Shown piece by piece: positions 13,200-55,800 of a stretch of 64,000 bases of DNA. Source of the stretch: Chiloscyllium plagiosum (taxonomy: Eukaryota). The notes beneath the pieces were generated by a model that saw only the letters and a program-made list of their open reading frames with translations, was not told where the DNA came from and searched no databases. Where the stretch lies: positions 71,722,433-71,786,432 of the forward strand of contig NC_057718.1 of assembly GCF_004010195.1 (NCBI RefSeq), in the 5' to 3' direction. The position numbers were made by a program, and so were the translations under genes. Each line of letters starts with the position of its first letter. The first letter of the stretch is position 1.

Positions 13200-14340
13200 C
13201 ATATAACACAGAAACCGAACTCATCCATGCTGCTCAAGGTTCCCAAACTGCTCCGAGGAGGACCAATTCCACCATAGAACATCCCAGATGGCCTCTTTCT
13301 TCAAGGACCACAATTTCCCCTCCCATGTGGTCCGACGATGTCCGCCAGCACATCTCTTCCACCTCCCACACCTCTGCTCTTGAACCCCACCTCTGCCCTT
13401 GAATCGCAACAAGGACAGAACCCCCCCCCTCTACCCCACTAACCACCGGAAACAGCATATCATCTTCCACCATTTCCGCTGTCTACAAACAGACCCTATC
13501 AAAAGGGATCTATTTCCTTCCCCACCCATATCAGCGTTAAGCAGAGATCATTCTCTCCATGACTCCCTTGTTAGGTCCACGCCCCTACCAACCCACCATC
13601 CACTCCTGGCACCATCCCTTGGCACCATCCCTTGCCACCATAAGAAGTACAGAACCTACGCCCACACACCCCTCCACCACCTCTGTTGAAGTCCCAAAGG
13701 ATCCTTCCACATCTGACAGAGATTTGCCTGTACTTCCACACACGTCATCTACTGTGTCTGTTGCTCACGATGTGGTCTCCTCTGCTTTGGGTAGACAGAA
13801 CGCCAACTTATGGAATGTTTCAGAGAACATAACTGGGACACATGCACTATACAATCCAACCGCGCTGTGGCTGGACACTTGAACTCCCCCTCCCACTCTG
13901 CCAAGGATATGCAAGTCCTGGACCTCCTCCACTGTCAAACTCTAGCCACCCAACACCTGGAGGAAGAACGCCTCATCTTCCACCTTGGGACCCTCCAACA
14001 CACGAGATCTATGTAGATTCCACCAGTTTCCTAATTTCCCCCCCACCTACCTCATCCCAGATCCAGCCTTCCACCTCGGTACTGCTCTCTAAAACTGTCC
14101 TACCTGTCCATTTTCCTTTCCACTTATCCCCTCCACCTTTCTTTCTAAACTATCACCCTCATCCCCACCTCCATCTACCTATCACAATGCCAACTACCTT
14201 CCCCACAGCCCCACCCCCTCCCATTTATCTGTCAGCCTCTCTCATTCCTGATGAAGAGCTTATGCATGATATGTTGACTCTCCTGCTCCTCTGATGCTGG
14301 CTGACTGGCTGTGCTTTTCCAGCACCACACTCTTTGACTT
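13200..14340 (+). mobile_element. Penelope-like retroelement 3' part (GIY-YIG region plus terminal repeat)
   Basis: HVIYCVCCSRCGLLCFG..ECFREH..VAGHLNSPSHS..LEEERLIFHLGTLQ; terminal repeat with ctgatgaag hammerhead-like motif at about 14248. Confidence 0.82.
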
Positions 14341-15104
14341 TGCCCCACCATGTCTATGCCAGCCAACAAACACCATGACTACACTAATTTCATTTGCCTT
14401 TGCTTAGTCATATCCTACGTTGTCCTATCCAGATGCTTCTGAAATGTTGCAAGAGGACCTGTCTTCATTACCTTCTCAGGGCAGCATATTCCATATTTCT
14501 GCCATGCTTCACATTTTGAAAACATTTTTCCCTGATCTCCTCTGAAGCACTTCCATCACATCTTAAATTTGTACCATTCAGCTTTAGACACATCTACCAC
14601 GAGCAAATATTTCTCATCATCTGCCTCTCATAATTTTGCATACCTTTGACACAGCCTCCTCTATCCTTGGAATCTCCTTCATTTTTGCACATCTGCTAAT
14701 GCTGGAATAATCTTGTAGATGACTTCTCCCTTTACAAAATTTTCTCATTTGTTTTTCATTCCTGATTTTAGCCACTTTCAATATTACCTCTGTGCAAACT
14801 ATAGTAAAATGGATTCTGCACTGAGTGAAAAACCTTCCTGAAAAACATAAACTCGTGTATCAAGGCAGTGAATGTAGAAAATAGGAGCAGAGGTTAAGCC
14901 ATTTGGCCTTCAAACCTTCTTTCCCATTCAATGATCATGGTTGATAATCCAACTGGATACCATGTTCTCACGTTCTCCCCATACCCTTTGAGTCCTTTAA
15001 CCCAAAGGGCTACATCTAACTCCTTGAAAAGATTCAGTGTTTTGGCCTCAAGCACATTCCTTAGCAGAGAATTCCACCACTCTCATCTCAGTGCTAAATG
15101 GATA

Positions 15105-16225
15105 AAAACAAGGACTGCAGATGCTGGAAACCAGAGTGGTGTTGGAAAAGCACACCAGGTCAGGCAGCATCCGAGGAGCAGGAAAATCGATGTTTCGAGC
15201 AAAAGCTCTTCATCAGCAATAGAAGCAGAGTGCCTGCAGAGTGGAGAGATACATGAGAGGGGGGTGGGGGTGGGGAGAAAGTAGCATGGGGGTGGGGATG
15301 GAGCNNNNNNNNNNNNNNNNNNNNNNNNNNNNNNNNNNNNNNNNNNNNNNNNNNNNNNNNNNNNNNNNNNNNNNNNNNNNNNNNNNNNNNNNNNNNNNNN
15401 NNNNNNNNNNNNNNNNNNNNNNNNNNNNNNNNNNNNNNNNNNNNNNNNNNNNNNNNNNNNNNNNNNNNNNNNNNNNNNNNNNNNNNNNNNNNNNNNNNNN
15501 NNNNNNNNNNNNNNNNNNNNNNNNNNNNNNNNNNNNNNNNNNNNNNNNNNNNNNNNNNNNNNNNNNNNNNNNNNNNNNNNTTTTTTGGAGCCTTAGATGG
15601 ACGTGAGGAAGGAGGTGTGGGCGCAGGTTACAATTCCTGTGGTGATAGGGGAGGGTTCCAGGAAGGGAGGGTGGGTTGTTGGGTCGAGGACCTGACCATT
15701 TAGTCACGGAGCAAATGGTCTTTGCAGGAAGCGGAACTGGGTGGGAAGGGAAATATATCTCGGGTGGTGGGGTCCATTTGGAGGTGTCGGAAATGTTTTC
15801 AGATGATGTGGTTTATGTGAAGGTTGGTAGGTTGGAAGGTGAGCACCATGGGGTTCTGTCCTTGTTACGGTTGGAGGGGTGGGGTTTGAGGACAGAGCGG
15901 TGTGGTGTGGACGAGATGCATTGGAGGCCATCTTTAACTATGTGGGAAGGGAAATTACGATCTCTAAAGAAGGAGGCCATCTGGTGTGTTCGATGGTGCT
16001 CAAGGCCATCTGGTGTGTTCTGTGGTGGAACTGGTCCTCCTGGGAGTAGATACAGCGGAGGCAGAGGAATTTGGAATACGGGATGGCATTTTTGCAGGAG
16101 GTAGGGTGGGAAGAGGTGTAATCCAGGTAGCTGTGGGAGTCGGTGGGTTTGTAAAAAATGTCAGTGGCAAGTCGGTCGTCATTAATGGAGATGGAGAGGT
16201 CCAGGAAGGGGAGGGACGTGTCAGA
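15105..16225 (-). mobile_element. Penelope-like element (same family), spanning the N gap 15305-15580
   Basis: Terminal repeat gctggaaaagcac..aggtcaggcagcatcc with hammerhead core at 15189-15216; RT C-terminal sequence (KPTDSHSYLDY) on -. Confidence 0.8.
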
Positions 16226-16356
16226 GAATTTGTCAAAATTCCAGTGAATTTATTCCTAACTGATCCAGATTTTCTTTGTACATCAATCCTGCATTCCTGC
16301 AAATTGGCCGTTGTTGCAATTTCTGCATAGCCAGAACATGCTTCCTCAGGTAAGGT

Positions 16357-16485
16357 TAGAGACAAAAAAAAGCTGCAAATGCTGGACTCCCAAATTCAGG
16401 ACTAAAGAAGGGTTTGACCCGAAATGTAGACTTCTCCACCTTCTGAAGCTACCTGGCTTGCTGTGTTCTTCCAGCCTCCTGCCTG
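16357..16485. mobile_element. Short rearranged PLE-derived insertion with 14-bp TSD
   Basis: TCCTCAGGTAAGGT at 16343-16356 and 16486-16499; interior made of PLE terminal-repeat pieces in opposite orientations. Confidence 0.8.
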
Positions 16486-19069: not shown

Positions 19070-22000
19070 TGCAGTAATTGTAATGAGGTCAGCCAGGTAG
19101 ACCTCATAGAATATGAGTACCCCTATTGGGGCTTTGAATCTGGTCCAATCGGGAAGCCTTGCTAACAGATGCAAACAAGATTTTCAGAAGTTCTGTTCAC
19201 TCTGAGAGCTTGCTCTGAGGCAGCTGGATCAGTATCGAGGACTTTCCATGTGTAAGTAAAGGAAAAGGTGTTTGTGGAATTATTTCAGTGGTGACAAATG
19301 AAAAACATAGTCCTAACTGAACAGTCAAATTTTGAGTTGGGGCGAGCAGTTCTGGCTTGGTACCATTATTATTTGGGAAGCTTGACTCGTTTGATCCTGC
19401 TGTTGAAAATTGGCCCAATATGTGGGAAGAATGCCTTATTTTCTTTAGGCAAATGACATTGGGACAGATGGAAAGCCATGAGTAATTCACTAAACAGCTT
19501 GTGGACCCGCAACGTTTTCAGTTATTAGGGCCCTAAATTTCCCTGAGGCACCAAATACTAAAACCTTGCAAGAATTGACAGATTTAGTTAAGGAATATCA
19601 TGAATCCAAGCCTCCTGTAATTCTGAGATACTATGGATTTTACTTGGCAATTTGAGAACCAGACGAGTCTGTATTGAGATTTTTGACTAGATTAAGGTGA
19701 CTGACAGAGGTTGTTTTAACCTTCAATGAGATGCTGAGTGACCATTTGGTATGTGGGAGAAGTGGTGTAACCATGCCCATTAGCTGAAGTTCAAACTGGT
19801 ATTACAACTAGCTTTAAAAGTGGAAGATGCAGCAAATGGAGCATATGGGTTACAGGTTCAGTAAAACTTGGGAACACCACTTGAATGAAGGCACAAGCTC
19901 ACTCAGGTCATATCCTAAACAAAGGGACTCTAGGTCAATCCACAGAGCAAAACCCCAAAACAAAACCAAGCCTTGACCAAATGATTAAAATTTTCTTCAG
20001 GATCTGGGCCAGCAAGCCATTGAAGTTGCTGCTGGTATGCAGATTCAAGACAGCAAAAGAGTTCCACTAGACCTAATGGAGTAAGAGAACTCATAGGATG
20101 GTATCCAGGAGTGTGCACACTCTGGAAAGTCCACCTTTGATTTGGACCATTCAAATTGCTTAGCAACATCCAAATCAAACCAATCAAAATAAACATCTAG
20201 TTAAATGGTCCAATAGACCCTATTCTAATAGAGGTCGATACCAATATGGCCCTTTCAGTGATCGCAGAACCATTCTTTAACAAAATTCTCTCTGGACTCT
20301 AATCCTTACGTTTACGCAAGACCTCAGCTGGAGAACCTATACTGGGGAACCTTTGCAGATTAAGGGTACAACTTCCATTCTGATTTCTTCTGAGAAACAT
20401 CTGGTTCAGTAGAAGGCTTGGGCTAAGGCTGATGGGGCAAAATTGGTTGAGAAAGATTAACCTGGATTTTTCAATTAGAAAATGGTTACCTGAGTGAAGT
20501 CCTAATTAAATATCAGGAAAGTCTAGGGGCTCTCAAAGGAGCCAAGACCACCTTGCCTGTTGACCAAGAAGCAATTTCACAATTCTGCAAGGTCTGTGCA
20601 GTGACATTCGCCTTATGGACAAAAATACAGGCAGAAATTCGAAGTTTGTAAAGCGAAGGAATAATCACACCAGTCCAGCTTGCGGAATGGGCAGCACCGT
20701 TCTACCAATTGTGAATCCCAACGAGTCAGTTCGCCTTTGTGGGGATTTTAAACAAACAGTAATCAATTTTTTATGACTGGTTAAGTACCCAATCTGTTTC
20801 ATAGAGGATTTATGTGCAAAGCTGGCAGGAAGGCAGAAAGCTGGACATGAGCCATGTGTACTTGCAGATGCAATTGGATGAGGATTCCCAGCAATTAATA
20901 TCCATAAGGGTTTTCACTAATATATGAGACTGGCATTTTGGGTATTGTCAGCCTGTGCAATTTTTCAACGGATGATGGAGAACATTTTGCAAGGTCTACC
21001 ATAGGTCACTATTTATCTTGATGACATGCTAATAACAGGGGAAGCCAATATGGAGCACCTAGAGAATTTGGACATAGACTTTAAACATTTATCCCAGGCC
21101 AACTTTCACCTTGGAAGGGTAAAATGTGTACTTGGGCTACAGAGTTGATAAGATTGGGTTACATCCATTGGAGAATATAGTGAAAGTGATCAGAGGAGCC
21201 CTGGCACCCACATCTCTCCTGGAACTTAGGTCTTTCTTTGGGCTGGTGAAGTATTGTGGAAAGTTCATGCATAACCTGGCCTCCATTATGGCACTTTTGC
21301 ATCAACTCTTAAAAAAGGTCAGACTTCGAAATGAATGCAAAGCAAAGCCTTAACTTTCAGAGAAGTGAAGAAACAGCTATCCTCCTCTACAGTGTTGGCA
21401 TACTATGATCCAGAGTGAGATCTGGTATTGAAATGCGATGACCTCTTGTATGGCATATAAGCTCATAGCTGGCCCAGTGAAGAGTACACATTAGCTCAAT
21501 AGAGTACACATATGGACTTTGGCTAATGCAGGACAAAAAGTATGCCCCCAGACAGAGGAAGTTTTGACAGTCATATTTGGAGTCAGGATGTTCTACCAAT
21601 ACTTTTACAGTTGCAGGTTTGTAATATTATGGACCGAAAATCTCTGGAAGGTCTACTTAAAGAGGACAAGTCAGTGCTGCCAATAGGTTGAGATAGAATT
21701 GAGCGGTAGGCTGTAACACTAAGTGCGTATAAATACAGGTTGGAACACCATCTGGAAATCCAATGTCAAATGTGAATGTATTGAACTGCCTCCCATTAGC
21801 AGATGAACTGCTGGTGGTACTGCCGTTGGAAGAGTCTGTTCGGTTTTAAATTTTGCAGTCACTGATGACAATATCAGACTTTGGACGCAGAAAAGTTTGC
21901 TCCTGGCAAAACTGAAACAGCTGGTGGTGATGGGGGAAGCCAAAGAATTGAAAACATTTTGGACCTGGAGAGATCAGATCATGATATTACTATGTGGAGC

Positions 22001-22970
22001 TACAGTGGTTGTCCTGAGCAAAGGTCGCTGCAGGAACTCCACCAGGATCATCCAGGGGTTTCCAAAATGAAGATGTTAGCAAGATGTTCTATGTTCTCTG
22101 TTCTAAATTAGATGGCAAACTGTCTATAGCAGCTGCAACCTATTTGGATGCTGCGGCATGTGGATTAGCAGTCACTTTGGTCAAGGCTGGGTTCTATTTC
22201 CCAGTATGCTTTAATCATTGTTCATCTTTTGTGACTCCATGGTAAGTTTATTATTGTCCATCAGAAGTTCATTATTTCGGATGGTCCTTCTGGCCACAGG
22301 AGGGCAAAACACATCAAGAACACCAATGTCGGACATAAAACTCTGTACGGTGGTGAAGAGACAGTTTACTTCAGGGAACAGAGTTTTATGTAGGAACCAG
22401 GAGAGTGATTCTGCATGGGTAAGAGACATGGTCAATGTGAAGTCACATCCAGTGCCATATGAAGTTGGGGTAGGTGTGATGATCCTGAACAAGCACATGA
22501 CCATATGAAAGCTGCAAATTCGCAAACCAAGTGGGAGCAAAACATACCTAGCACCTGCACTGGCATTCCAACTGTTCCAGAACCTGTGGGCTTTCCCTAA
22601 CCATCAAACGTTGAAGATATCTCGGAATTTGAGATGGACCAGGCGGATGTCGCCGCCTCAACAGTTTTGCTGCCTGAAGAGGAGAATGAATTTCTTTTGA
22701 GATGCTCCAGGTGCAAAATGTAAGCCACTATGCATTACACTCCGCAGGCAGAGTTGGAGGAGGAGCTACAAAACAAGAAGAATAACAGGGGGAGGAATGT
22801 AGTGATTATAACAAGATCAGCCAAGTGGACATCATAGAATATGAATTCCCTTTTTTGGGCTATTAATCTGTTCCAATCGGTGCCCTAGCTTACAGATACA
22901 AATGGAGTGTCAGTGGTTCTGTTCACTGTGAGAGCTGGCTCTAAGGAAGTTAGATCAGTGTCAAGGATTT
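19070..22970 (+). mobile_element. Degenerate Gypsy (probably Mag-like) LTR retrotransposon with both LTRs
   Basis: 5' LTR 19070-19287 (TG..CA) followed by a PBS-like TGGTGAC. Remnants of gag LFGKLDSFDPAVENW, protease-like IEVDT, RT VTIYLDDMLITG (about 21004), ELRSFFGLVKY, integrase start LQELHQDHPGVSKMKMLAR. PPT AGGGGGAGGAA 22787-22797; 3' LTR from 22798 aligns with the 5' LTR. Confidence 0.88.
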
Positions 22971-23786: not shown

Positions 23787-23927
<141 letters not shown>

Positions 23928-25286
23928 TGAGATGGCGTACTTGGGAAAAAGCACATATTAGAAATTAAGAATTGTAGAAGCTATATATTCAAGCAGGTTG
24001 AAAGGCGTTTGTGTCATGATCCCTCTACAGTCTGCAGCCTATACACTGTGTATTCCCTTAAAGACTGCCACCTAAGTCATCTATGCTTCTCATTGAGCAG
24101 TTGATTTGTCAGGTGCAACAAGCTCCATGAAATATGGAGGGAGTGTCGTTGCCAGTATCAAAAACAGACTCGTCTTTCAAACAACCCTGATGTATTTTTT
24201 GTCCAAAACATCAGAGAATATCACAGCTCCATTGCATGATAATTTTAGCTTTGGATGTTTAAGATCTTTTTATATTTGATCTTTGCTCAGGTTCTCGACT
24301 TTCCATGACTGCTCATAGAAGGTGCCAGATCATATTGGAGAATGGCTGCAAGATCATTAATTGTCCTCTGTTCTCTCCCTCAATCAAATGCTATTTCTTC
24401 AACTGAGAGTCGGGCTGACTTTTAAAATTGGGGTATTGCAACAAAGCCACCTAATGTTCATACATTTGTTTTTAAATCAAGGACGGTTCATGTATTAGAG
24501 AGAAGAAATTACTCTTTTTTTGTCACCAGCACTCTTCTTAATGGCTGAGGTCAGTTGTCCATATGGAATTGTGTTTAGCTAACGTAGCCCAGATTATGCA
24601 TTGGAGTTTATGCTGTAGACTGCACAGGGAAACACCTTGCTTTAATTTAGAATCATAGAAACATTTACAGCAAGGAATTGTTTTTTTTTCCACATTGAGT
24701 CCATGTTGGTTCTCCATGAAGCAATCCAGTCAGTCTCAGATTTAGTTAATTAAAATGCCCATCCATTTTCCTTTTGAAATTGTTGATTATTTCTGTTTTC
24801 TCCAAACTCAGAGGCAGTATGTTCTCTGTCATTACCTCTTACTGTGCAAAAGATTCCTTCTCAAATTCACTTTGCATTTCTTGTCAGTCTTAAATGCGTG
24901 TCCTTAGCACTCGTATGACCAACTAATGGGAACAATTTTTTTTGTCTATGTCCAAATTTGTTGTAATCAAATCAAACGCTTCCATCAAATTTGCCCTCAA
25001 GTTTTTTTAAGCCAAGAAGACAAAAGCAACTTTTCCAACCTAATCTTGCAACAAAAATCTATGGATATTGAATCGTTCTGGTAAATCTCCCCTAGTATCT
25101 CTCAAGGATCTTCACATCGTTTATAAATTGGACCCTTGTGATGAGAATTGGGTGTAATACCCTACTTGGAGCCTTACCAGGCATTTTTAAAAGTTCAGCA
25201 TGATTTCCTTGTTTTTACAGTCAGTGCCTCTGTTTTATGAAGCCCAAAATCCCATTTGCTATCTGAACTGCCTTTAAAGATCTATG

Positions 25287-25492
25287 GTAGACAAACATAA
25301 GATAGAAGAACACAGCAAGCCAGGAGATGGAGAAGTCAACATTTCAGGTATAGCCCTTTTTGAGTCCTGAAGAAGGGTTGTTCTCAAAATGTTGACTTCT
25401 CAACCTCCTGATGCTGCCTTGCTTGCTGTGTTCTTTTAACCTCCTAGTTGTCTACTTTGAATTCTAGCATCTGCAACGTTTTTGTTTCTAAT
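25287..25492. mobile_element. Foldback PLE-derived mini-element with 15-bp TSD
   Basis: CTTTAAAGATCTATG at 25272-25286 and 25493-25507; inverted copies of the PLE terminal repeat around an agtc-CTGAAGAAGGG motif. Confidence 0.82.
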
Positions 25493-25629
25493 CTTTAAAG
25501 ATCTATGTGCATGCAATCCAGGTCCCTCGGTCCCTGAATAATCTTTGCCTTTTCCAATTCCTTCTGCTAAATGTATCACTTTGCATTTCTATGTATTAAA
25601 CTAGATTCACAGAGTAAATTCTAACTATG

Positions 25630-26140
25630 AAAAAAAGTGAGGACTGCAGATGCTGGAGATCAAAGTCGAAAAGTTTTTTTATATTCGTTCACAGGATGAG
25701 GGCGTTGGCCAGCATTTATTGCCATCCGTAATTGCCCAAAGGGCAGTTAAGAATTAAGCATATTGCTATGGATCTGGAGTCACATGTAAGCCAGCCCGGG
25801 TAAGGATGGCAAGATTCATTCCCTAAAGGACATTAGTGAACTGGTTGGGTTTTTTCAACAATTGACAATGGATTCATGGTCATCATTAGACTCTTCACTC
25901 CAGGTTTTACTGAGTTCAAATTGTACCATATGCTATGGTGGATTAACAGTCTAGCGATAATGCCACTAGGACATTGCTGGAAAAGCATAGTAGGTCAGGC
26001 AGCATCCAAGGTGCAGGAGAGTCAATGTTTTGGGCATAAAGCCCTTCAATCCTGATTGATGGGCTTACGCCTGAAACATTGACTCTCCTGCTCCTTAGAT
26101 GCTGCCTGACCTGCTGTGTTGTTCAGTGCCACATGTTTTG
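25630..26140. mobile_element. Foldback PLE-derived element interrupted by another SINE-like repeat (about 25680-25975)
   Basis: aaagtgaggactgcagatgctggagatc start and inverted gctggaaaagc..caggcagcatc / gatgctgcctgacctgctgtg arms, as in the 26564 element. Confidence 0.7.
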
Positions 26141-26563
26141 ACATTAAATTCCAGCTGCCCATTTTGATAGCTTACCTATGTTATACTGCAGGTTATTCAT
26201 GTAATCCTTACTGTTTGCCACTTGTCCACGTTTTGTATCAATGGCAAATATTGAAATTCCAATCTACATTCGAGGATTAAGTAATTAAAGAGAGAGCTAA
26301 GAAGAGCCAGGAGGAGACATGAGAAGTCTTTTGCGTATAAGATCAAGGAAAACCCTGCGGCTTTCTATAGCTATATCAGGAATAAAAGAATGACTAGAAT
26401 AAGGTTAAGGCCAATCAAACATAATGGTGGTAAGTTTTGCATGGAGGCATAGAAGAAGGAGAAGTGCTAACTGAATACTTTTCGTCAGTTTTCACTCCAG
26501 AAAAAGACAGTGTGGCCAAGGAGAATACTGAGATACAGGCTACCAGACTAGATCAGATTGAGG

Positions 26564-26756
26564 AGAAAGTGAGGTCTGCAGATGCTGGAGATCAGAGCTG
26601 GAAATGTGTTGCTGGAAAAGCGCAGCAGGTCAGGCAGCATCCAGGGAACAGGAGAATCGACGTTTCGGGAATTCCTGAAGAAGGGCTTATGCCCGAAACG
26701 TCGATTCTCCTGTTCCCTGGATGCTGCCTGACCTGCTGTGCTTTTCCAGCAACACA
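26564..26756. mobile_element. Young foldback PLE-derived mini-element (193 bp) with 15-bp TSD
   Basis: TAGATCAGATTGAGG at 26549-26563 and 26757-26771; 65-bp inverted arms 26605-26669 and 26692-26756 with one mismatch. Confidence 0.92.
26671..26707 (+). ncRNA. Minimal type I hammerhead ribozyme motif (PLE type)
   Basis: CUGAAGA(A)-GGGC-UUAU-GCCC-GAAAC-GUC: both core boxes, a 4-bp stem II, palindromic ACGU stem III and a GUC triplet. Stem I is weak and activity is unverified. Confidence 0.65.
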
Positions 26757-27599
26757 TAGATCAGATTGAGGTGCATAAGGAGGAGGTGTTAGCAATTCTG
26801 GAAAGTGTAAAAATAGATAAGTCCCCTGGGCCAGATGGGATTTATCCTGGAAAGCCAGGGAAGAGATTGCTGAGCCTTTGGCTTTGATTTTTATGTGATC
26901 ACTGTCAATAAGAAGAGTGCCAGAAGACTGGAGGATAGCAAATGTTTTTCCTTTGATGAAGAAGGGGAGTAGAGGCAACCCTGGAAATTATAGGTCAGCG
27001 AGCCTTACTTCGGTTGTGGGTAAAGTGTTGGAAAAGGTTATAAGAGAATTTATAATCATCAAGTGAGGAATAAGTTGATTAGGGATGGTCAACACGGTTT
27101 TGTGAATGGTAGGTCGTGCCTCACAAACCTTATAGAGTTCTTTGAGAAGGTGACCAAACAGATGGACGAGAGTAAAGCGGTTGATGTGCATATGGATTTC
27201 AGTAAGGTGTTTGATAAGGTTCCCCACGGTAGGCTATTGCACAAAATACAGAGGCATGGGAATGAGGGTGATTTAGCCATTTGGATCAGAAATTGGCGAG
27301 CGAAAAGAAGATTGATGGGTGGTTGATGGGAAATATTCATCCTGGAGTTCAGTTACTAGTAGTATACTACAAGGATCTGTTTTGGGCCCACAGTTGTTTG
27401 TCATTTTTATAAATGACCTGGATGAGAGTGTAGAAGGATTGGTTAGTAAATTTGCGATGACAATAAGGTTAGTAGAGTTGTGGATAGTGACGAAGGATGT
27501 TGTAGGTTACAGAGTGACATAGATAAGCTGCAGAGCTGGGCTGAGATGTGTCAAATGGAATTTAATATGGAAAGTGTGAAGTAATTCACTTTGGAATTC

Positions 27600-28100
27600 A
27601 CTTTGCCCTCTTCTAGCTCTCCTAAGTCCATCCTTCAGTTCTTTCCTGGCTACCTTGTGACCTTCTAAAGCCCTGTCTGATCCTTGCCTCCTTAATCTTA
27701 AGTAAGCTTCCTTCTTCCTCTTGACTAGATGTTCCACATCCCTTGTCACTGAAAGTTCTTTCAACCTCTTGCTTGCCTCAGTGGGACAAATCTGTCCAGC
27801 ACTATCAGCAAGTGCTTCCTAAGCAACCTCCACATTTCTGTCATGCATTTCCCTGAGAACATCTGTTCCCAATTTAGGTGCCCCAGTTCCTGCCTAATAT
27901 CATTGGAATTCCCCCTCCCCAATTTAAATACTTTCCCATACTGTCTGCTCCTATCCCTCTCCATTTGTATAGTAAAGGTTGTGATCTGTATCACAATCTT
28001 TGTGATCTGTATCACAACCTTTGTGATCTGTATCACAGAAATGCTCTCTCACTGAGCGATCTGACACCTGGCATGGTTCATTACTAAGCACCCAAATCCA
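27600..28100 (-). mobile_element. CR1 LINE fragment (endonuclease/linker region)
   Basis: IRQELGHLNWEQMFSGK..DRFVPLRQ and LVKRKKEAYLRLRR on -. Confidence 0.8.
27979..28037. repeat. 21-bp tandem repeat, about 2.8 copies, with an internal palindrome
   Basis: TTGTGATCTGTATCACAA(T/C)CT units start at 27979, 28000 and 28021. Confidence 0.9.
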
Positions 28101-28553
28101 ATAACATATTAAAAAAAATAATAGTTTGTTTTTCACTACTGGTTACGTCCACTATTGAAGATCCACATAATCCTACAATTGGTGAATTTGCAGTTTCTGT
28201 AGAGCTGATACAGTTGTAGCTGTACAACAACCAACCTTCCTGGATTTGCAGTTATATCTCAAATCACCCTGACGCAGATGCAGAGGCAGATATTTTTGTT
28301 ACTTAGAAGAGACAAATTGAGTAAATTTTAAATTACTCTGCTGAACCATCGATGATTATCCCTCTCATAACCTAACTATAAGGGAAAAACCTTTTCTCAT
28401 CTCCTGTACAATTCACTCTTTTCACGTGCATATATTGTAGGTTCAGGGAGGTTGATAGATCAACCGTTAAAGGACAACAATTAAAGGACAAAGAACTTTT
28501 GTTTTAGAAAAGATTAGTGTTGATTGACATTAGATCTGATTGTTCTTTTGTAG

Positions 28554-31364: not shown

Positions 31365-31481
31365 TCATTTCAGACGTTGGGTAACATTAGCTAATGCAAC
31401 AGCAAAAGCTTGCACTGCAGAAAATGGATACTGAAAATCTAAGATGTATGCATTACCATCAATCCTTCCAAATTGCATCAC
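31365..31481 (-). CDS. TULP4: TULP4 last coding exon (end of tubby-like domain) including stop
   Basis: ttttgcAG acceptor on -. Encodes VMQFGRIDGNAYILDFQYPFSAVQAFAVALANVTQRLK*. Phase-0 join to the large exon. Confidence 0.96.
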   Translation of the reverse strand: MMQFGRIDGNAYILDFQYPFSAVQAFAVALANVTQRLK

Positions 31482-31844
31482 CTGCAAAAGAAAATAAATT
31501 ACAGGCATTGGAAAGAAGCAATTTTTCCGATTGGAATTGGATCAAAGTTCAGTAAATGAACCAATTGATTAAAGGCTTACGTTTGCAGCATGGTATCATC
31601 TTTATTTTAACTATTGTTAATTTGTTGTTTGATTTTTAAATTAGCCTACTCAACAATACATTTTGATTACCGGCAACCAGGGTATGCTCTGTATATATTT
31701 CAGGTACATTGGTTGGGGGTGAGACTTTTTTTTCTCATGGGAGAAAGTCCTACCAATTTAACCAGCTAGGTCTTTTACCTTTCCCTGATCTCTTCTTTCC
31801 AGCCACACGGACGTAGACGTTAATTAGATACTAATTGCAGCAGA

Positions 31845-32030
31845 GGCAAACAAGCGGGAGGCTGGAAGAACACAGCAAGTCAGTTAGTATCATGAGGTGA
31901 AGAAGTCAACATTTCAGGTGTAACCCTTCTTTAGGACTCCACCTCCTGAAACTGCCTGGCTTGCTGTGTTCGTCCAGCCTTCTGCTTGTCTATCTTGATT
32001 TCCAGCATCTACAGTTTTTTTGTCTCTAAT
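31845..32030. mobile_element. Foldback PLE-derived mini-element
   Basis: ggctggaagaacacagcaag arm inverted against cttgctgtgttcgtccagcc; flanked by a short TAATTGCA repeat. Confidence 0.75.
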
Positions 32031-32339
32031 TAATTGCACTACGGCAGGAGGGAGGGCTGCATGAAGTGGGAGTCTCTAAAATTCTATAGCAAACAGATGA
32101 GGGGATCTGTTGGATATTGTGCCACAAAGTTTATATTTGTAACACATAAGAGAATGGTAAAGTTTGAAGTGGAACAATCTAAAATAAAACCTTTGAATGG
32201 GAAGAGGCAGAAATGGCAGACTGAAGATAAATAGTCTTAAAAATTAATGGCCAAATACAAAATAGTTTGAATTTATATTGTGACAAGGAATGGCATTGTT
32301 GCTGGTCCACAGTAAATGCAAATCCTAATTTTTTCTTTG

Positions 32340-33110
32340 TTTACATCTACAATTTCCAAATTGTTGGAGGAAATCCTGAAGAAGGATTTATGTGTACTTG
32401 GAAAGGCAAGGACTGAATATGGCTTTGTGTGTGGGAAATCATGTCTCACTAACTTGACTGAGTTTTTTAAAGAAGTAACTAAGAGGGCTGAAGAGGGCAG
32501 AGCAGTGGACATGATCTGGATGGACATCAGTAAAGCATTCGACAACCATGTGATGGCAACTACTGTAGACTGGTTGCCATCACGTGGAATACAGGGAGAA
32601 CTAGCCATTTAGATACAGACTGGCTTGAAAGTCGAAGACAGACGGTGATGGTGTAGGTTGCTTTTCAAACTGGAGGCTTGAGACCAGCAGTGTGCCATCA
32701 AGATTGGTGCTGAATCCACTGTTCTTTGTCATTTATATAAATGATTTGGATGTGATTACAGGAGGTCTGGTTAGTAAGTTTGCAGATGACACCAAAATTG
32801 GAGGTGTAGGGTAGCCAAAAGGTTACCTCAGAGCACAATGTGACCATGAACAGATGGGCAATTGGGCTGAGGAGTGGCAGATGGAGTTTAATTTAGATAA
32901 ATGTGAGGCGCTGCATTTTGGAAAGGCGGATCAAAGCAGAACTTATATACTTAATGTTAGGTCCTGGAGAGTGTTGCTGAATGAACAGACCTTGGAATGC
33001 AAGTTCATAGTTCCTTGAAGGTGGAGTCCCAGGTATTGAGTATAAAAGTTAGGAGGTCATCTTGTGGTTTTAAAGGACATTGATTAGGCCACTTCTGGAA
33101 TACTACATGT
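32340..33110 (+). mobile_element. CR1 RT fragment
   Basis: GKSCLTNLTEFFKEVTK..MDISKAFD; YINDLD..KFADDTK. Confidence 0.85.
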
Positions 33111-34199
33111 AATCGCTTAGAACCTTTCAGGCCCATCTTTTTCCTCTTCTATACTGATCATGAATCTACTGAAGTTATGACCTGTGTGAGAAAAAATGTT
33201 CTCCCAGTTATTACTTCAAGCACTTGTCCTCAACCACTTCATGACTTAATTTTAAGTTCAAGACCATCCCCTAATCCCGTGGGGCCTTCTACATACCAGA
33301 TTAAAAAAAGGTGTCCTGGAATTAGAAAGAATTCCATTCTTTTTAAATCTTTTACATTATGACTACCTCATTATTGCTACCAAATAACTTAAATGTTTCT
33401 CTTAAATTTGCCATTCTCAAAGCATAAATTCATCATTCAAAAAAGTGACTTTTTTTACAGCCATAATGCCATTTGAGAAATAGGTTGTTTTAACAAATAG
33501 AACTATATGGGTGCAATATACACCTCCCAACCCCAACTTATGGATGCTGTAAATAGAAAAGTTGGGATATTGCAGGCTACCTCTACTAAAATAAGTGGTT
33601 TAATTATCTGCTGTGTTTCCCACACTGATTTTTGGGATTCATTCTGCTTGGTTCATTCAGTCAGATATGATGTTGCAGATTAGATTTAATTTTCAGTAAA
33701 TAAAAAATAGATGTTGATTAAATCATTAATAAGTCTTTCAGACATATTTCTAACTTTATGACGTAAAGTCACAAATTTTCCTGCCCCAAATCACTCTAAT
33801 GATATTGCACTACTTGGTTATTATTGCGATACCAAACTGAGAACGAAAGCATTTAATTATTAATATCCATAAACAAATTCAAGAAGCAATATAATTAAGT
33901 ATTAAAATGCAAAAGATACACTTTTCTAAAGCCTGTTACAAGTGACTTTGTAATTTAAGTTGCAAAATTATTACAAAAGTCAGAGACTAAATAATAAACA
34001 GGGCCCATGTGATCAACAATTCAATGTTTTGTAGAATGCAGAGACCAGTAAAACCTATGATTTCACCTGAGATAAGTTTATTGCTGCAAATGACTATTTT
34101 ATCTCATTCATTGAAACTGCACAACTGAAACAAATCTAGAATAGAAACAAGTGGTTTCAAATAAGATTAGAAAGTATTCTGGAATTTTCATTCAACCCA

Positions 34200-34490
34200 C
34201 TGTGTCCACACCAACCCTCTGAAGACCATCCGACCCAACCAGCTCCCTCCCCTATCCCCACAACTCTGCATTTACCACAGCACCTAGTCGACACATTCCT
34301 GGACACTATGGACAATTTAGCATGCCCAATCTATCTAATCTGCACATCTTCGGACTGTGGGAGAAAACTGGATCATCTGATAGAAAACTATGTAGACATG
34401 TCAAACGTGCAAAATCTACAGTCACCTGAGACTGGGTTCCTGGAGATGTGAGGCAGCAGTGCGAACCACTGAGCCACTGTGCAGCCCATA
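34200..34490 (-). mobile_element. Diverged HE1/V-SINE-like SINE
   Basis: gtgaggcagcagtgc..ccactg head and ggactgtgggag core in reverse orientation. Confidence 0.75.
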
Positions 34491-34856
34491 ACAGAGTCAG
34501 ATTCATTCATAAAGCTTATCTCTAGATGCAAGGAAACATAACTGCTGAACACAGCTGTTCATTTTGAAGAACCCTCTTATGAAGGAATATATAGCTACAA
34601 AAGCTCTTTACACTTACAGCATTCAGTATTTTTCCTACATGAGGATTGCATGAGCAACCAGCCAAAACACTCTTTTCTGGGTATCATAAGCACCATACCA
34701 AAATCCTTCCGTGGACATTTTGAGCATCAAACTAGCACCCTCTCATAGCTTCATGAGCAGCAAAAGTGTTTAAGCCACAATGAATAAATTTAGACCACAA
34801 TGAAAGTTGACTGTGATGTGTTGCAGCAAACTATATTGTACATTATTTTACAATAC

Positions 34857-37339
34857 CTGTCGTCCTTCCAACTCAATTTGGAAGTTTTTTGCAGACTCTT
34901 GGGTCACTCTTCCTCCAAAGTCCAACTGATATACTTGTGTTGCCTCATTCCAGAGTGGCTGCTTGTTAGCCATTACATACACAAATCCTTGATTCCCCAA
35001 TTTCCCGTCCTCTTTTTCATTTGCCCTTCGACATTTCAGTTCATCCGTTTCATTCGCTGTCCTTAAGTTTCTCTTAGTTTTCCAAACCTTTTTGGCGCTC
35101 TGACTCTGATTCATGAACTCATCTCCACTAATGAATAACTCTGGCTCACTTTCTGAGCTGTCTTGAAACTCACTCATTTTATTCAGCTTTTTGGATTTTA
35201 TCTGATCTTTTTGACTTTTGATTTTTTTCTTTTCTCTTCCTAGTCTCGGGCTAGAAATTAGAGAATTGAAGTCTGTAAGCACCTTTGCGTCTTTTTTCAT
35301 TTTTCCTTCAGTTACAGCTCGCATATTTGCCTCCTCTGGTCTGCTGTCTAACCGTTTATGGCTTTTCTTGTCATATCTATCTGTTCGCAGAAGAACAGGA
35401 GATTCTGTCAGAGAGACGACCTCTTGGAAGTTGTCTGCTGTTTCGATAATTGCCTCAGTTCTCGTGTGTTGAAACTCTGTTGAAAATGAAGGCATTCCAG
35501 CTTTCTCAACAAGCACGTCTGGCTTTGAGCTCAACGTACCCTGTGAACTATGCATCAGGGAACAAGCACTGTAAGTATTCCATTGATGTAATGTAATCGG
35601 GGGGAGCTGTAGACTAGAAAATGTGTTATTGGTTGGATACATTGGTGGCAATGGACAACAGCCAATGTTAGCTGGATAACCAGATTGCACGACTACAGAA
35701 GAGTCTTGTTGTGGGTATGGAGGTGGGATTATAGCTTCTGAAGAAGGAAAAGAGGCCTGAAAGGCTGCAATAGGAGATGCGCTGTAACTTAGTGGATATG
35801 GTAATGTGAATCCAAAGTTTGACTGGAAAGTGACTGTTGGACTATTTGTAGATTTAATAGGAATGATTGGTACATGAGGTATTTCCACATGTGATTGTTC
35901 CAAGATGAGTGCTGGTGGTTTATGACACGCTGTTGCAGAAATCTGACTTGGTTGTTGTGGAATCCAAATTTCCTCACTCCCTGTTTGGTCCCACTGATAT
36001 GGGAGTGGTTGCTTCATGCTCATGTTGATCTCATTATTTAATGTAATATGTCTAATGGATTTCTCAAATTGACAATGCTGCAAAATAGATTCATCCTCAC
36101 TGAAAGCATTATTAACATATTCAGTTCTATCCTGACAGTTGTCTGGAACACTTAGCAGATTATAGGATGACTGAGAAGAGAGGGGTGATGTACTAGATGA
36201 GTGGACAATTACAGTGCTAAGCTGAGAGCCAGTCCCAGTAGGTAATTCTGATCTACTATTAATGTTACTATTGTTGCTTCCATTGTTGATGCACTGAGTA
36301 CACGTATAGAGAGCCGGTGGAGATCTGAGAGAGGTTTGCTGGTACTGTGCAGACACAGAATTGTTCTTCAGTTTATGACCATGTTGAATAATCCTATGTG
36401 AGTCTAACAGCTGAGACACTTTTGCTGTGGCATCTTTGCTCTCACTTTGCAATGGCACTTGTATAGTGTTACTATCAATACGCTGACTTCTATTGGTGGC
36501 ATCAGGATAAGGAGGTGGATCTCCACTAGGAATAACACAGTGAGCAACACTCAGCCTATTTAATGTGCCATATACCTGCTGTACCTTCTTAGCATCTGCT
36601 GAAGGCAACTGTAAAGGTGACTGTCCTGGGCCTGGAAGTGTATACGTATTTTGACTGCTTGATATTCTCATGCGAGGCCTATATACTTCTTCGACATTTC
36701 CACTGCTATCAAATGTTGTGATTCTTTCGTAACCTAGAGGGGTTTGAAGATGTCTAGTAGGAAAGAGGGAGAGATCTATTTTTTTCAGACAAATGTCTGC
36801 AGGTGGAGTAGTAGCAGAGGTGGCTGCAGAAGCTGTTATAGTCCCTGGATACGGAGGAGGTGGATGTGCATTTATTTTAGCTAACTGCACTTCGGGGGTT
36901 GTGCAGAATGGCATTGTATTGCTTTCCAGGAACTGTGGCACTGTTCGCATCGACTTGATTTTCTGAGAGTGCTCAGGTTCTCGTTCCACCTGCTCCATGT
37001 TGGGAATCTGTACAATCCCCCCAAGCTGTGGTGATTGCTGTTGTGATCCACCAGTCATTCGGCTGGTTTCCAAACTTCCAAAAATTGCCTGCCCAGGATT
37101 TGAAAACCTGTTAGAAATTGCATACTGGCTGGAATTGTCCAAACCACGTTCTGCTGCTCCTGCAATAGCTGTTTGATTTGTTAAAATATCAAGCTGCACA
37201 TTCTGATTGGCAAGTAACGATTGAACTAGTCCAATACTCTGGGTAGGGGACATTGCTTGAGCAGAACTATGGATTGGTGCAATGGGAATGTTAACAGTGC
37301 AAGGAGGATTGTTTTCTGGAGCTCCAGTTGTTCCATTCA
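34857..37339 (-). CDS. TULP4: TULP4 large penultimate coding exon (2483 bp)
   Basis: Open frame (ORF 34848-37340) with ctttgcacAG acceptor and GTattg donor. Contains PPCTVNIPIAPIHSSAQAMSPTQSIGLVQSLLANQNVQLD and the tubby-like ANKQPLWNEATQVYQLDFGGRVTQESAKNFQIELEGRQ typical of TULP4. Confidence 0.96.
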
Positions 37340-39629
37340 CTGTGCAAAGAGAAGAACAAAATTTAAAAATTCTTTATTACCGACAAAATATTTAGCTTGC
37401 CCCATAGAAAAGCATACACTGCTATTTTTCTAATGACATTCAATTGTACTGTTTGCAGCACATACGTTGTATAATTTTGAGAAATTTTAAGAATGATTTT
37501 TAGTTTGTCTATGTCAATAAAAATGCACATTTGAAGAAGAGGTATAATAGGCAGTACAATGGAGTAATCTAATATTAATCAGAAGGAAATTTGAAGAGTT
37601 AATATGAAAGGCATAATCGGACTAAGACGAGGTCAACATTACATTGAATTATAAAACACATGGGAGGCGATGGACTGTTAATCCAGAGACCCAGGTAATG
37701 GGGAGCTGGGTTCGAATCCTGCCTTGGCAAATGGTGGAATTTGAATTCAACATATATCTGGAATTAGGAACAGTACAACACAGACACAAACCCTTTGGTC
37801 CACCACATCTCTGCCAATCATGATGCCATTCTATACTAATTCCATCTGCTTAAACATGTGCACTTCCCTCTGTTCCCTGCCTGTTCATGTGTCCAAATGT
37901 CTCTTTAATTTTGCTATTACATTTGCATCTACCAACTCATCTGGCAATGTATTCCAGGCACTGACCAACCATGGTATGAAAAATGTGTCACACTCATCTC
38001 CTCAAATCAGAGGATGGCAGAGAGTCATTGAGAGGAATTCTGATAGACAGCACTGCGGGCACCACTACTGGAGAGTCGATCGTGATAGGACACCTTCGGT
38101 GACTGGCGTAAGGAGCAGCATTGAATCAGAGAGTGCAGAGATACCATTGAGAGGAATTCTGGGAGACAGCAGTGGTCTGAATATTGCAGAAGAACTGGTG
38201 TCAAGGAGTGGTTAAACCTGAACGCTACATTTGTGTTTCCCCCATTTCCTGTAAAATAAAAAAAGGCACTACAAGGAGTACAGGCAAGATAAGATTTTTG
38301 TCTTTTTTAAAATATAGATGGGTGGAGCTGGAAGTGAGGGCAGTGATATGTTCCTCTTGCCAGATGTGGGCAATACCACCTGCAGGAAGTGTTACCAGCT
38401 GCAACTCCACATAGACCACATGGATGGTTGGAGAAGGAGCTTGACACATTGCGGTGCATAGTGGGGGACACACAGTGTGATAGACACTAGCTTTAGGAAG
38501 ATGGTTACATCACAGGATTACCTGAAACATGAGGAAAAACAGATATAAGTGTAGGACGGAAGGCTTTAGATATATGGATCATTAGAATATCTCCTATGGA
38601 TGGTGGGACCTATGCAAGAAGGACGGGTTGCAGCTGAACTGGAGGGGTACCAATATCCTGGGTGGGAGGAACTACTAGAGCTCTTCAGGAGGGTTTAACT
38701 AGTGTTGTAGAGGGGTAGTAACCAGAATAATAGGCCAGTAAATCAGGGATTGAGGACAAAAGTGAGACTGCGATATGCAAAGCACAGAGTAAGAGGGAAG
38801 TTGGGCTCAGAGGAACTGAAGGTCTGGAGTGCATTGACTTCAATGCAACAAATATAACAGGTAAGACAGATGAACTAAGAACATGGATTACTGCATGGAA
38901 TTATGATGTTATTGCCATTATGGAGAAATGGTTGAAGGAGGGACATGACTGCCAGCTTAACATTCCAAAATATCGCAGTTTTACATGGGAAAGAAAGGGA
39001 AACAAAAGGGGACAACAACTGCTTTAAAGACCAGTTGATTAAAGTGCAGGATATTCATGTCCCTGCAAAACTGAAGGATAGGAATCGCAGGATTCAGGAA
39101 CCAAGAATGACGAGGGAAATTGTAAGCTTAGTCAAAAGGAAAAAGGACTCATACGATAGGTCGAGGCAGCTACAAAATGACAAATCCCCTGAAGAGTATA
39201 GGGAAATTGGGAAGGAACTTGAACACGGAATTAGGAAGGCTAAATGGAGCCATGAAATGTCTTTAGCAAAAAGGTTCAAGGAGAATGCAAGGCTTCTTTT
39301 GAATATATTAGAAGAGAGCAGCAAGGAAAAGAATAGGCCCACTCCAGGACAAAGGAGGGAAGTTATGCATGGAGTCACAGCAAGTGCGAGAGATCCTGAC
39401 TGAGTACTATGTATCGGTATTTACCAAGGAGAAAGATATGACTGATGTTGGGGTTATGGATATGTGTGTGAATACTCTAGAGAATGTCAATATATTGAAG
39501 GAGGAAGTTTTGGGTACCCTAAATTGCATTAAGGTAGCCAAGTTCCCAGGGCCAGATGAAATGTGTCAGGTTACTGCAAAAGGCAAGAGAAGTAGCTGGT
39601 GCATTAGCAGATATTATATTAGATCTTTT

Positions 39630-52874: not shown

Positions 52875-55800
52875 TGGAGAAGTCCACGTTTCAGGTGTAA
52901 CCCTTCTTCAGGACTGGGGATGGGTGTAGGGGGAGATGCAGATAAAGGGGATGGCGGGATTAGGGTGGTGAAGTGGGGATAGGTGAAGACACGTAGAGGG
53001 TATGACCTGATTGTTCAATGGGAGGATTGAATCCAATTGGTGGCAGGGAATAGTGGAAGGGAGGGGGTAGGGCTGGGAAGAGAGTCAGGGGATGGGAAGA
53101 GAGGTTATTTTCAATTAGAGAACTCAATGATGAGTCCTCCGGGCTGTAGACTGCCAGGTGAGAGATGTGGGGTTGTTCCTCCACTTTGTGGTTTGATTCA
53201 TTGTGCATGGTGACTGGGCAGTCTGGTCGGCCCCTGAGGGCCTGACTGAGATGCTCAGCGAATGTTTGGTCTCCCCAATGTAGAGAAGACCACATCGGGA
53301 CCAGCTGATGCAGTAAACGAGACTGGCAGAGAGGCAGGTGAACCTCTGTCTCACCTGAAGGGACTCTTTGGGGCCCTGGATGGAAGTGAGGAGGGAGGTG
53401 TGTAGGCAGGCTTTGCATCGTTTCCAGTTGCAGGGGAAGGTACCTGGGTGTTGGTGGGGAGGGTGGCGCAAACCAAGGACTGTCAAAGGCAACGGTCCTT
53501 GCGGAAGGCAGAGAGGGGTGGGGAGGGGAAGATGTTCGTGGTGGCGGGGTCTAGTTGGAGTTGGCGCAAGTGTTTAACGATGATATGTTGAATGATGAAA
53601 CTGGTGGAGTGTAGGTGAGCACAAGGGGGATTTTATTGTGTTAGGAGGAGTTTAGAGCAGTGAAACAGGGAATGGAGGTGGTGAGGTGGAAGGCTATCTG
53701 GATGACAGAGAGAGGAGAAGCACATTGTTTAAAATAGATGGACATCTGGGAGACTCGCGAGTGGAAAGTCTCCTCGTCCAAGCAGATGCAGTCGAGGCGG
53801 AAGAATTGGGAGAATGGGGTAGAGTTCTTGCAGGATACTGGGTGTAGTCAAGGTAGTGATGGGAGTCTGTGGGTTTGTAGTAAATGTCTGTCTACGACTG
53901 TTGCCGTAGATGGAAATGGAGAGGTGAAGAAAGTGGAGGGAGGTGTCCGAGGTGGACCATTTGAATTTGAGGGCAGGGTGGAAGTTGTGGGCAAAATCAA
54001 TAAACTGCTCCAGTACAGTCTGGGTGCAAGATGCTGCACCAATGTAGTCATCGATGTAATGGCGGAAGAGTTAGGGCACAGTGCCTGTGTAAGTACTCAA
54101 GACTGACTGATATAGTCAACAAAGAGACAGGTGTAACAGGAGCCCATCAAGGCACCCATGGCCACCCCCTGGATTTGGAGGAAATGGGAGGAGTTAAAGA
54201 AAAAGTTGTTGAAGGTGAGGACCAGTTCGGCGAGGCAGTGGAGGGTATCGGTAGAGGGAAACTTGATGGGTCATTGGAGAGGAAGAAGCAGATGGCCTGG
54301 AGACCAATCCTTGTGGTGTATGGACATGTATAAGGACTGCACGTCCATAGTGAGTGCTGTTGAACTGGAAGCTACTGCAGGGATGGAGGGCATGGTTGGT
54401 GTCGCGGATATAGGTGGGAAGTGCCTGAACTAAGGGGGAGAGGGTGGAGTCAAGATAGGACGAGATGAGTTTGGTGGGGCAAGAGCATGCCAAGATGATG
54501 AGTAGACCAGGCTAGTTGGGCTTGTGGATCTTGGGGAGCAGGTAAACCAAGCAGTGCGGGGCTAGGGGACTATGAACTTGGAGGCACTGGAGGTGAGATC
54601 ACTGGAGGCAATGAGGGCACGGACACTGCAAGTGATTTTGACCTGATGGGTTGTGGTCGGGTTCTGGGCAAATGGGAGTTAGGACATAGTTTTAGGACAT
54701 GTCACAGTAGAACGAACAGCCAATGTGGAACTCCAAACCAGTGTCTAACAGGAAGACAATGCATACTGATCAAATACTGAACAACAGAAGCAATCAACCC
54801 AACACCCACAAACGGAGCTGCATTAGAACATTATTTCAATGAGCCAACACACACTGCAGCACAGAGGAACTACGTAGAGCAGAGCAAAATCACCTATACA
54901 GTGTATTCAAGAAGAATGGGTCCTCAATGAACACAGTCCATCGATTTCTAAGCAACAAATCTCAGAAACCCTAGCCACTCTCCCCTACATCAAAGACATC
55001 TCAGAAATGACTGCCAGACTACTCAGACCCCTTGACATCATGATAGCCCACCAACACATTAAAACAGCTGTGAAAGACCGTATACAAACAACAAGCAACG
55101 TCATTTACAAAATATCTTGCAAGAACTGTAATAAATACTACATTGGAGAAACAGGCAGAAAACTAGCCACCAGGATACATAAACATCAACTTGCCACAAA
55201 AAGACATGACCCACTCTCACTAGTATCCTTACATACAGGTGAGGAAGGACACAACTTCAAGTGGGACAACACAACCATCCTAGGACAAGCCAAACAGAGA
55301 CTCGCAGAAGAATTCCTAAGCATGGCATTCCAACCGGAAAGCGATCAACGAACATATTGACTTGGATCCCATTTACCACCTTCTGAGAAAAAGAACAGGA
55401 AATTACATCACCACAGAAAATGAACCACCAACCCAAGGAAACCTAAACACATAAATAGAAAGCAGGCCACGGCACCAGTGCTTCATCCGGAGGGTCACTG
55501 ATGATGTTCTCTGGTATGGTGATGAAAAGTCTGAAAACGAACCTTCCAGCTCAGCGAGCAAACCTACATCCAGGACGTGATGTCGGAGAGTTGGCGTTCG
55601 GCCTCTGCAGCACAGAGGTCTGTTCTCCAGACTACCACCGCCCTGCCTTTGTTAGCAGGATTGGTGGTGAACTGGGGATTGTTGTGGACTGAGTTGAGTG
55701 CTGCGCGGTGGGGGGGATTTGTGGTTGGAGAAATTGAGGCAGCCGATGTCACGTCAACAGTCTGCAATGAAGAGGTCTAGGGCAGGTAAAAGGCCAGCGG

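What the first reader, a model, noticed from the sequence alone, without database searches (positions are those of the whole stretch)
26549..26771. Pristine 193-bp foldback retro-insertion whose own antisense arm masks a hammerhead core, on the sense strand of an ACAT2 intron
Seen in sequence: an exact 15-bp TSD; 65-bp inverted arms with one mismatch and a 22-nt spacer; a complete CUGAAGA..GGGC/GCCC..GAAAC-GUC core at 26675-26702 on the strand transcribed as ACAT2 pre-mRNA; CpGs intact, so probably young. Established: Penelope-like elements carry minimal hammerheads in their terminal repeats and often insert with an inverted truncated repeat. Inference: the upstream arm pairs over the GAAAC-GUC half. 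The pre-mRNA would form a 65-bp hairpin that silences the ribozyme and could be an ADAR or Dicer substrate, which may be why such insertions are tolerated in introns.
Basis: partly seen in the sequence, partly recalled or inferred. Interest (0 to 1): 0.7.

Follow-up and report, generated by a model that had tools for sequence, protein, structure and literature searches.

The report
Double-primed Penelope hairpin stub in intron
This 193-base hairpin in the last intron of a shark-like ACAT2 gene is real but is one of many thousands of short, mirror-image stubs of a Penelope-type jumping gene, likely written by two copying starts at the moment of insertion, and its small ribozyme is likely inactive with or without the masking arm.

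Summary
In detail: exact 15-bp TSD, 65-bp arms with one mismatch, a minimal hammerhead core on the ACAT2 sense strand, last intron. The insertion is not special. A 34-mer of the arm occurs 26,616 times in this genome, and 40 of 84 consecutive sites are foldbacks. The parent is an RT + Zn-linker + GIY-YIG (Neptune-type) Penelope-like element; inverted pLTR plus one-sided tail is a published layout. The antisense arm does bury the core in silico, but the core has no helix III loop, published minimal hammerheads do not cut as monomers, and unmasked copies are about as common. So masking as the reason for tolerance is not supported. The family is informative: 72 of 74 complete foldbacks pair one tailed with one untailed arm; ends cluster 4 nt before CUGA with excess G (40 of 65 against 26% expected); priming ends show microhomology. 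This favours two cDNAs primed from the two target nicks on capped sense RNA. Family-wide RNA shows possible A-to-I edits, none assignable to this locus. The scan already reported these readings on other DNA.

The parts
26549..26563 (+). Left target-site duplication; its last bases GAGG also match the element's continuation past the tail (likely priming microhomology)
26564..26604 (-). PLE tail, present only on the left arm (about +82 to +122, counting C of CUGA as 0)
   Evidence: tail as described in PMC8557442 and PMC3846280
26605..26669 (-). Inverted, 5'-truncated pLTR arm; holds GAAACGUC on the - strand but lacks CUGAAGA
26670..26670 (.). Junction base; the exact 28-nt junction occurs at 13 genomic sites
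26671..26756 (+). Sense pLTR arm from ATTCC (-4, the family's modal 5' end) to +81, without tail
26675..26702 (+). Minimal type I hammerhead core; predicted cut after C26702; no helix III loop
   Evidence: criteria from PMC4209133
26757..26771 (+). Right target-site duplication
26285..27500 (+). Host: decayed LINE ORF2 relic interrupted by the insertion (limits approximate; the label CR1-type is recalled, not tested)
   Evidence: RVT_1, E 6e-8
23898..28553 (+). Last intron of the ACAT2-like thiolase gene

Best explanation
The insert is a head-to-head pair of short copies of the ribozyme-bearing end of an abundant Neptune-type Penelope-like retroelement, likely made in one insertion event and likely inert. 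Shown: anatomy, family size, link of this pLTR to an RT-GIY-YIG frame, one-long-one-short rule, 5' end cluster, G excess, microhomology. Inferred mechanism: the GIY-YIG endonuclease nicks both target strands about 15 nt apart. Each 3'-OH primes a cDNA on sense RNA, one at the tail-end site (about +125) and one at the inner site (about +81 to +93). Both run toward the capped 5' end at -4; their 3' ends are joined near the hammerhead, and fill-in gives the TSD. In ACAT2 pre-mRNA the arms are predicted to form a 65-bp hairpin that buries the core, but this is a by-product: a lone minimal hammerhead would not be expected to cut anyway.
For: 26,616 exact 34-mer and 165,276 exact 20-mer matches, 0 for reversed controls. 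40 of 84 consecutive sites are foldbacks; TSDs of 12-17 bp in 27 of 40. De-duplicated census: of 88 foldbacks, 5 gap-cut and 9 with a partial arm were set aside; 72 of 74 are long+short (p 1e-19 against 50%), and both exceptions are complex loci. The tail sits on either arm (20 vs 15). Priming-end microhomology averages 1.56 nt against 0.38 control over 52 ends. G before ATTCC: 20 of 36 solos and 20 of 29 foldbacks where the other arm does not template it, against 25.6% in flanks; arms starting at -3 show G in 2 of 22. Arms of one insertion share variants (7 against 0.36 shuffled; identity 0.94 within vs 0.85 between). The 13 copies of this junction fall in both tail classes (7 and 6) and at least 4 sequence variants. 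PMC11167929: a PLE protein cleaves and extends both strands, starts at two internal sites that bound the tail, and is predicted to be a dimer.
Against: This copy has A, not G, before ATTCC. In 10 of the 20 solo G cases the G lies inside the TSD, so it is also target-derived; single extra bases are G in only 2 of 3 solos. No 5'-end RNA data map a start at -4, and 292 RNA reads run through -4 from upstream pLTR sequence. Some foldbacks have discordant arms at subfamily sites (L256/L020, L035, +42 in four loci), so 'one RNA' is not general. PMC11167929 reports initiation without homology to the target, unlike the microhomology here, and no difference in start site between strands. Pfam RVT_1 and GIY-YIG hits on the parent are just under the curated cut-offs. 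The samples come from the start of one contig, except the junction and ORF sets.
Confidence: 0.75

Rival explanations
1. One reading: the antisense arm silences an active ribozyme, and this is why the insertion is tolerated in an intron.
For: Predicted complete pairing of 26692-26756. The core bases are intact and on the transcribed strand. Tandem retrozymes are under-represented in Xenopus introns (10.64898/2026.07.22.740005, passages).
Against: Monomeric minimal hammerheads did not cleave (PMC4209133). The double-hammerhead fold (-22.7 kcal/mol) is less stable than two monomers (-26.4) or the cofold optimum (-30.6). 44 of 84 sites lack an adjacent inverted arm, 36 of them keeping CUGA. Family RNA depth shows no step at 26702/26703 (513.8 vs 514.2) and no pile of ends (one sample, fragmented library, weak).
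Confidence: 0.07
2. The inversion arises by self-priming (fold-back) on an antisense template, as proposed for rotifer Penelopes.
For: PMC3846280 (passages) proposes this for head-to-head palindromes. Arms mostly share variants, and several junctions are palindromic.
Against: It does not predict the strict long+short pairing, microhomology at both outer ends, a G excess at a fixed sense 5' end, or arms from different subfamilies.
Confidence: 0.13
3. The hairpin is a non-autonomous element (MITE- or retrozyme-like) copied as a unit from a master foldback.
For: Two other loci are 100% identical over the central 91 nt.
Against: Junctions differ from site to site. This exact junction occurs only 13 times, in both tail classes and several subfamilies. 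No tandem direct array is present.
Confidence: 0.05

Closest known systems
EN+ Penelope-like insertions with inverted pLTR, one-sided 30-40-bp tail and TSD (PMC8557442 Fig. 2 legend; Adineta Pen2a_Av, PMC3846280; passages read)
   Same: Head-to-head inverted 5'-truncated copy, tail at one end only, TSD, hammerhead in the pLTR.
   Different: No ORF body; both copies are about 90-105 nt; the TSD is 15 bp (12-17 in the family) against 8-10 bp in the Adineta examples.
Minimal hammerheads of metazoan PLEs (PMC4209133, parts 1-2 of 4 read)
   Same: Extra base between 9 and 10.1, G10.1-C11.1, palindromic 15.2-16.2, no loop 3; mostly single copies, some pairs on opposite strands.
   Different: Helix II is only 4 bp, and the opposite-strand partner here is truncated and overlaps the core's 3' half.
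Anolis Poseidon PAc in vitro (PMC11167929, parts 1-2 of 4 plus passages)
   Same: Two internal RT start sites bound the tail; both strands are cleaved and extended; the hammerhead is dispensable for insertion.
   Different: Poseidon clade, not Neptune-type; no target homology reported; the passages found do not explain inverted pLTRs.
L1 twin priming (recalled, no call)
   Same: Two target nicks prime two cDNAs and give an inversion inside one TSD.
   Different: In L1 the two segments do not overlap; here both arms copy the same RNA stretch from fixed start sites.

Membership tests
EN+ Penelope-like element (parent family) | Single frame with RT followed by GIY-YIG, then the pLTR | tested here: met
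   L196, L207, L203: YIDD RT, HIIYCIRC..LYIGET endonuclease, then the same pLTR; Pfam E 3e-6 and 4e-4, below curated cut-offs
EN+ Penelope-like element | Inverted 5'-truncated pLTR with a one-sided 30-40-bp tail and a TSD | tested here: met
Neptune clade | CX2-5CxxC linker between RT and EN | tested here: met
   CNRRRCNTC in L196, L205, L207; criterion from PMC8557442, shared with Nematis
Neptune clade | RT phylogeny groups with Neptune rather than Nematis | not tested
   No tree was built; no reference sequences were held
Minimal type I hammerhead | Core CUGANGA, GAAA, UH; extra base after A9; G10.1-C11.1; palindromic 15.2-16.2 | tested here: met
   26675-26702
Minimal type I hammerhead | Self-cleavage as a dimer or with protein help | not testable with these tools
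   No ends at 26702 in one polyA run, which is weak evidence
Canonical monomeric hammerhead | Helix III closed by a loop | tested here: not met
   ACGU with zero loop; no Rfam hammerhead hit
Non-LTR retrozyme | Tandem direct units, each with a hammerhead | tested here: not met
   One core, inverted partner; definition from 10.64898/2026.07.22.740005
MITE-like foldback family | Uniform master with fixed termini and centre | tested here: not met
   Variable junctions; tail on either arm
miRNA precursor (Rfam) | Gathering score | tested here: not met
   mir-3199 55.9 of 100 bits, on both strands

The most novel reading that the evidence does not exclude
These stubs are a genome-wide record that a dimeric PLE enzyme primes both target nicks, one at each of two fixed internal sites, on a capped sense RNA that begins four bases before the hammerhead. 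This would explain inverted pLTRs, one-sided tails and the mass of solo minimal hammerheads, and replace the antisense self-priming model. The resulting hairpins in host transcripts may be edited by ADAR at hammerhead A14 and A15.1.
Probability: 0.5. Interest if true: 0.55.

Novelty: new member of a known kind. Interest (0 to 1): 0.3.

Why it matters
The locus itself is ordinary. The family matters because how PLEs make inverted pLTRs and one-sided tails is still open (PMC8557442, PMC11167929), and the counts here give sharp predictions for the existing in vitro system. If about half of the young sites are 60-90-bp hairpins, thousands lie in this genome and could be a large source of double-stranded RNA in host transcripts (extrapolated from the start of one contig).

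Tried and rejected
Empty-allele test with four contig runs: repeats collapse and no listed piece spans the site, so it gives no information on polymorphism. RNA lay: X22 laid 0 reads; X21 laid 2,457 family reads with 0-2 depth just left of the insert and 1-3 just right, where all 4 reads at 26773 differ from the window, so nothing is locus-specific. No indexed holder was on record as RNA (no RNA holder listed). Rfam: no hammerhead. TSD search on the older foldback at 25974-26124 found only a 6-mer. Master-foldback and miRNA readings rejected. Paper searches: Penelope+hammerhead+inverted+shark 0 hits; cap/non-templated G 0 hits, so the cap-G precedent is recalled; head-to-head mechanism gave only PMC3846280; twin priming with pLTR and cryo-EM/dimer gave no paper stating dual priming for PLEs. 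The library lacks most subscription papers (Arkhipova 2006 and Evgen'ev 2005 not seen), and no supplements were read; those of the bioRxiv preprint were closed. Intronic strand bias could not be tested without annotation.

Full report
Observation. The 15-bp repeat is exact. Of 11 paralogous LINE loci fetched, 7 could be displayed, and each has one copy of the 15-mer with the flanks joined, so it is a real TSD. The arms are 65 bp with one mismatch and a 22-nt spacer, z = -17.4. The mismatch is a CpG>TpG change at 26739 and would be a G-U pair in the + strand RNA. Two exons have human ACAT2 as best hit, all three match Thiolase_C, and the insert lies in the GT..AG intron 23898-28553, inside a LINE relic. 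The label shark is my reading of the repeats and of earlier notes; no call names the organism.

Identity. The arm belongs to a very large family: 26,616 exact matches of a 34-mer and 165,276 of a 20-mer, with 0 for reversed controls. Longer copies join the same pLTR to a frame with a YIDD reverse transcriptase, a CNRRRCNTC linker and a GIY-YIG domain (Pfam hits just under the cut-offs), and the sequence after the tail runs into the ORF start. The linker defines Neptune and Nematis in PMC8557442 (passages); I built no tree. The layout of inverted truncated copy, one-sided tail and TSD is described in PMC8557442 and PMC3846280 (passages).

Population anatomy. Positions count from C of CUGA as 0. 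Of 84 consecutive sites on contig C1, 40 are foldbacks and 44 have no adjacent inverted arm; a second sample picked by a different motif gave 37 of 82, partly overlapping the first. 3' ends are bimodal, near +89-92 and +125. After de-duplication over three samples and a filter of 88% identity, 88 foldbacks remained; 5 cut by gaps and 9 with a partial arm were set aside; 72 of 74 pair one long with one short arm. One exception has a deleted tail in its flank and the other an inner tandem. L362, a long/long call, pairs a young arm with a diverged one and fell below the filter. The tail lies on either arm. TSDs of 12-17 bp were found in 27 of 40 foldbacks, and the 52 scorable outer ends overlap the template by 1.56 nt on average against 0.38 in controls. 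This copy fits: long left arm to about +122 with GAGG overlap, short right arm to +81.

5' ends. They cluster at -6 to 0, not at the predicted cut at +27. The template there reads TCATTCC, an initiator-like motif (consensus recalled). 5,724 arms genome-wide start at -4 with a non-template base. I fetched 90 loci covering 93 of the first 100 rows, and 92 events were scored: 57 G, 20 A, 15 T. Leaving out 27 cases templated by the other arm, G is 20 of 36 in solos (p 1e-4 against 25.6%) and 20 of 29 in foldbacks. Arms starting at -3 show G in 2 of 22. This fits reverse transcription of a cap (precedent recalled; one search found no paper). Against it: in 10 solos the G lies inside the TSD, this copy has A, and 292 RNA reads cross -4 from upstream pLTR.

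One template or two. Arms of one insertion share variants (7 against 0.36 in shuffles, maximum 4 of 2000) and are more alike than arms of different insertions (0.94 vs 0.85), but some differ at recurrent subfamily sites. Two RNAs, usually from one source, or two pLTRs of one tandem transcript would explain both. The exact junction of this copy occurs 13 times, 7 with the tail on the core-less arm and 6 on the core arm, in at least four variants, so it recurs by mechanism and not from a master.

Ribozyme. The core meets the published minimal-hammerhead features (PMC4209133, parts 1-2 read) but cannot close helix III alone. In the insert, 26692-26711 pair with the left arm at probability 0.99-1.0, and freeing GAAACGUC costs 13.7 kcal/mol. 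So the masking is predicted, but it appears redundant: the published monomer did not cut, the anole ribozyme needed protein and was dispensable for insertion (PMC11167929, parts 1-2 read), the dimer fold is not the optimum, no other + strand core matches in the window, and 36 of 44 unpaired sites keep CUGA. Whether such sites avoid the sense strand of introns is untested.

RNA. In one single-cell polyA run, 2,457 reads of 12.96 million fall on the family; depth has no step at the cut site and no ends pile up. Changes equal to A>G at family positions 22, 23, 56 and 79 reach 12-25% in one strand class against 0-7% in the other, while genomic copies show G in 0 of 199, 1 of 199 and 0 of 210 at 22, 23 and 79 (position 56 was partly fixed by the sampling motif). 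Positions 22 and 23 are hammerhead A14 and A15.1. However, five non-editing changes are as asymmetric, the strand convention is assumed, 33 rows were not shown, the DNA control is contigs of another sample, and no read is tied to this locus. Editing is a lead, not a result.

Verdict. A real, young, ordinary member of a known kind. The dual-priming and cap readings were in my notes before I saw that the scan had reported both on other DNA, including this genome; those notes are not independent support. The searches listed under Tried and rejected found no paper stating them. Other papers were seen as listings only, except PMC2377424 and PMC8969392 (passages) and the 2026 preprint (part 1 of 5 plus passages). 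Interest 0.3.

Noticed in passing
window 25634-26124: An older, diverged foldback of the same family in the same intron (arms 25974-26047 and 26046-26124); a tail fragment at 25634-25677 is separated by about 300 bp of other sequence. Its core is degenerate and no TSD was found.
   Followed up: partly
window 31365-37373 (-): Exons that look like the 3' end of TULP4 (name recalled from the sequence), including an 841-aa open stretch, tail to tail with ACAT2.
   Followed up: no
window 19300-22600 (+): Decayed LTR-retrotransposon-like gag-pol frames inside an ACAT2 intron (label recalled).
   Followed up: no
window 14241-16475 and 52876-59318: Older PLE relics with RT or GIY-YIG fragments and degenerate hammerheads; 12 family-like hits in the window in all.
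   Followed up: partly
L137-L140, L171, L182, L185, L187: Short partial tandems in which the ORF start jumps back to ATTCC, giving two direct pLTR copies about 200-300 bp apart; these could form dimeric hammerheads.
   Followed up: no
L256 (same site as L020): Foldback whose two arms carry different subfamily variants at +38 and +42, which suggests two templates.
   Followed up: partly
L198:1841-2629 (-): A 263-aa frame that resembles a retroviral envelope transmembrane region beside a PLE fragment (resemblance recalled).
   Followed up: no
L273 and L274 (C1 about 1.468-1.470 Mb): Near-identical old foldbacks 1.5 kb apart, probably a local duplication.
   Followed up: no
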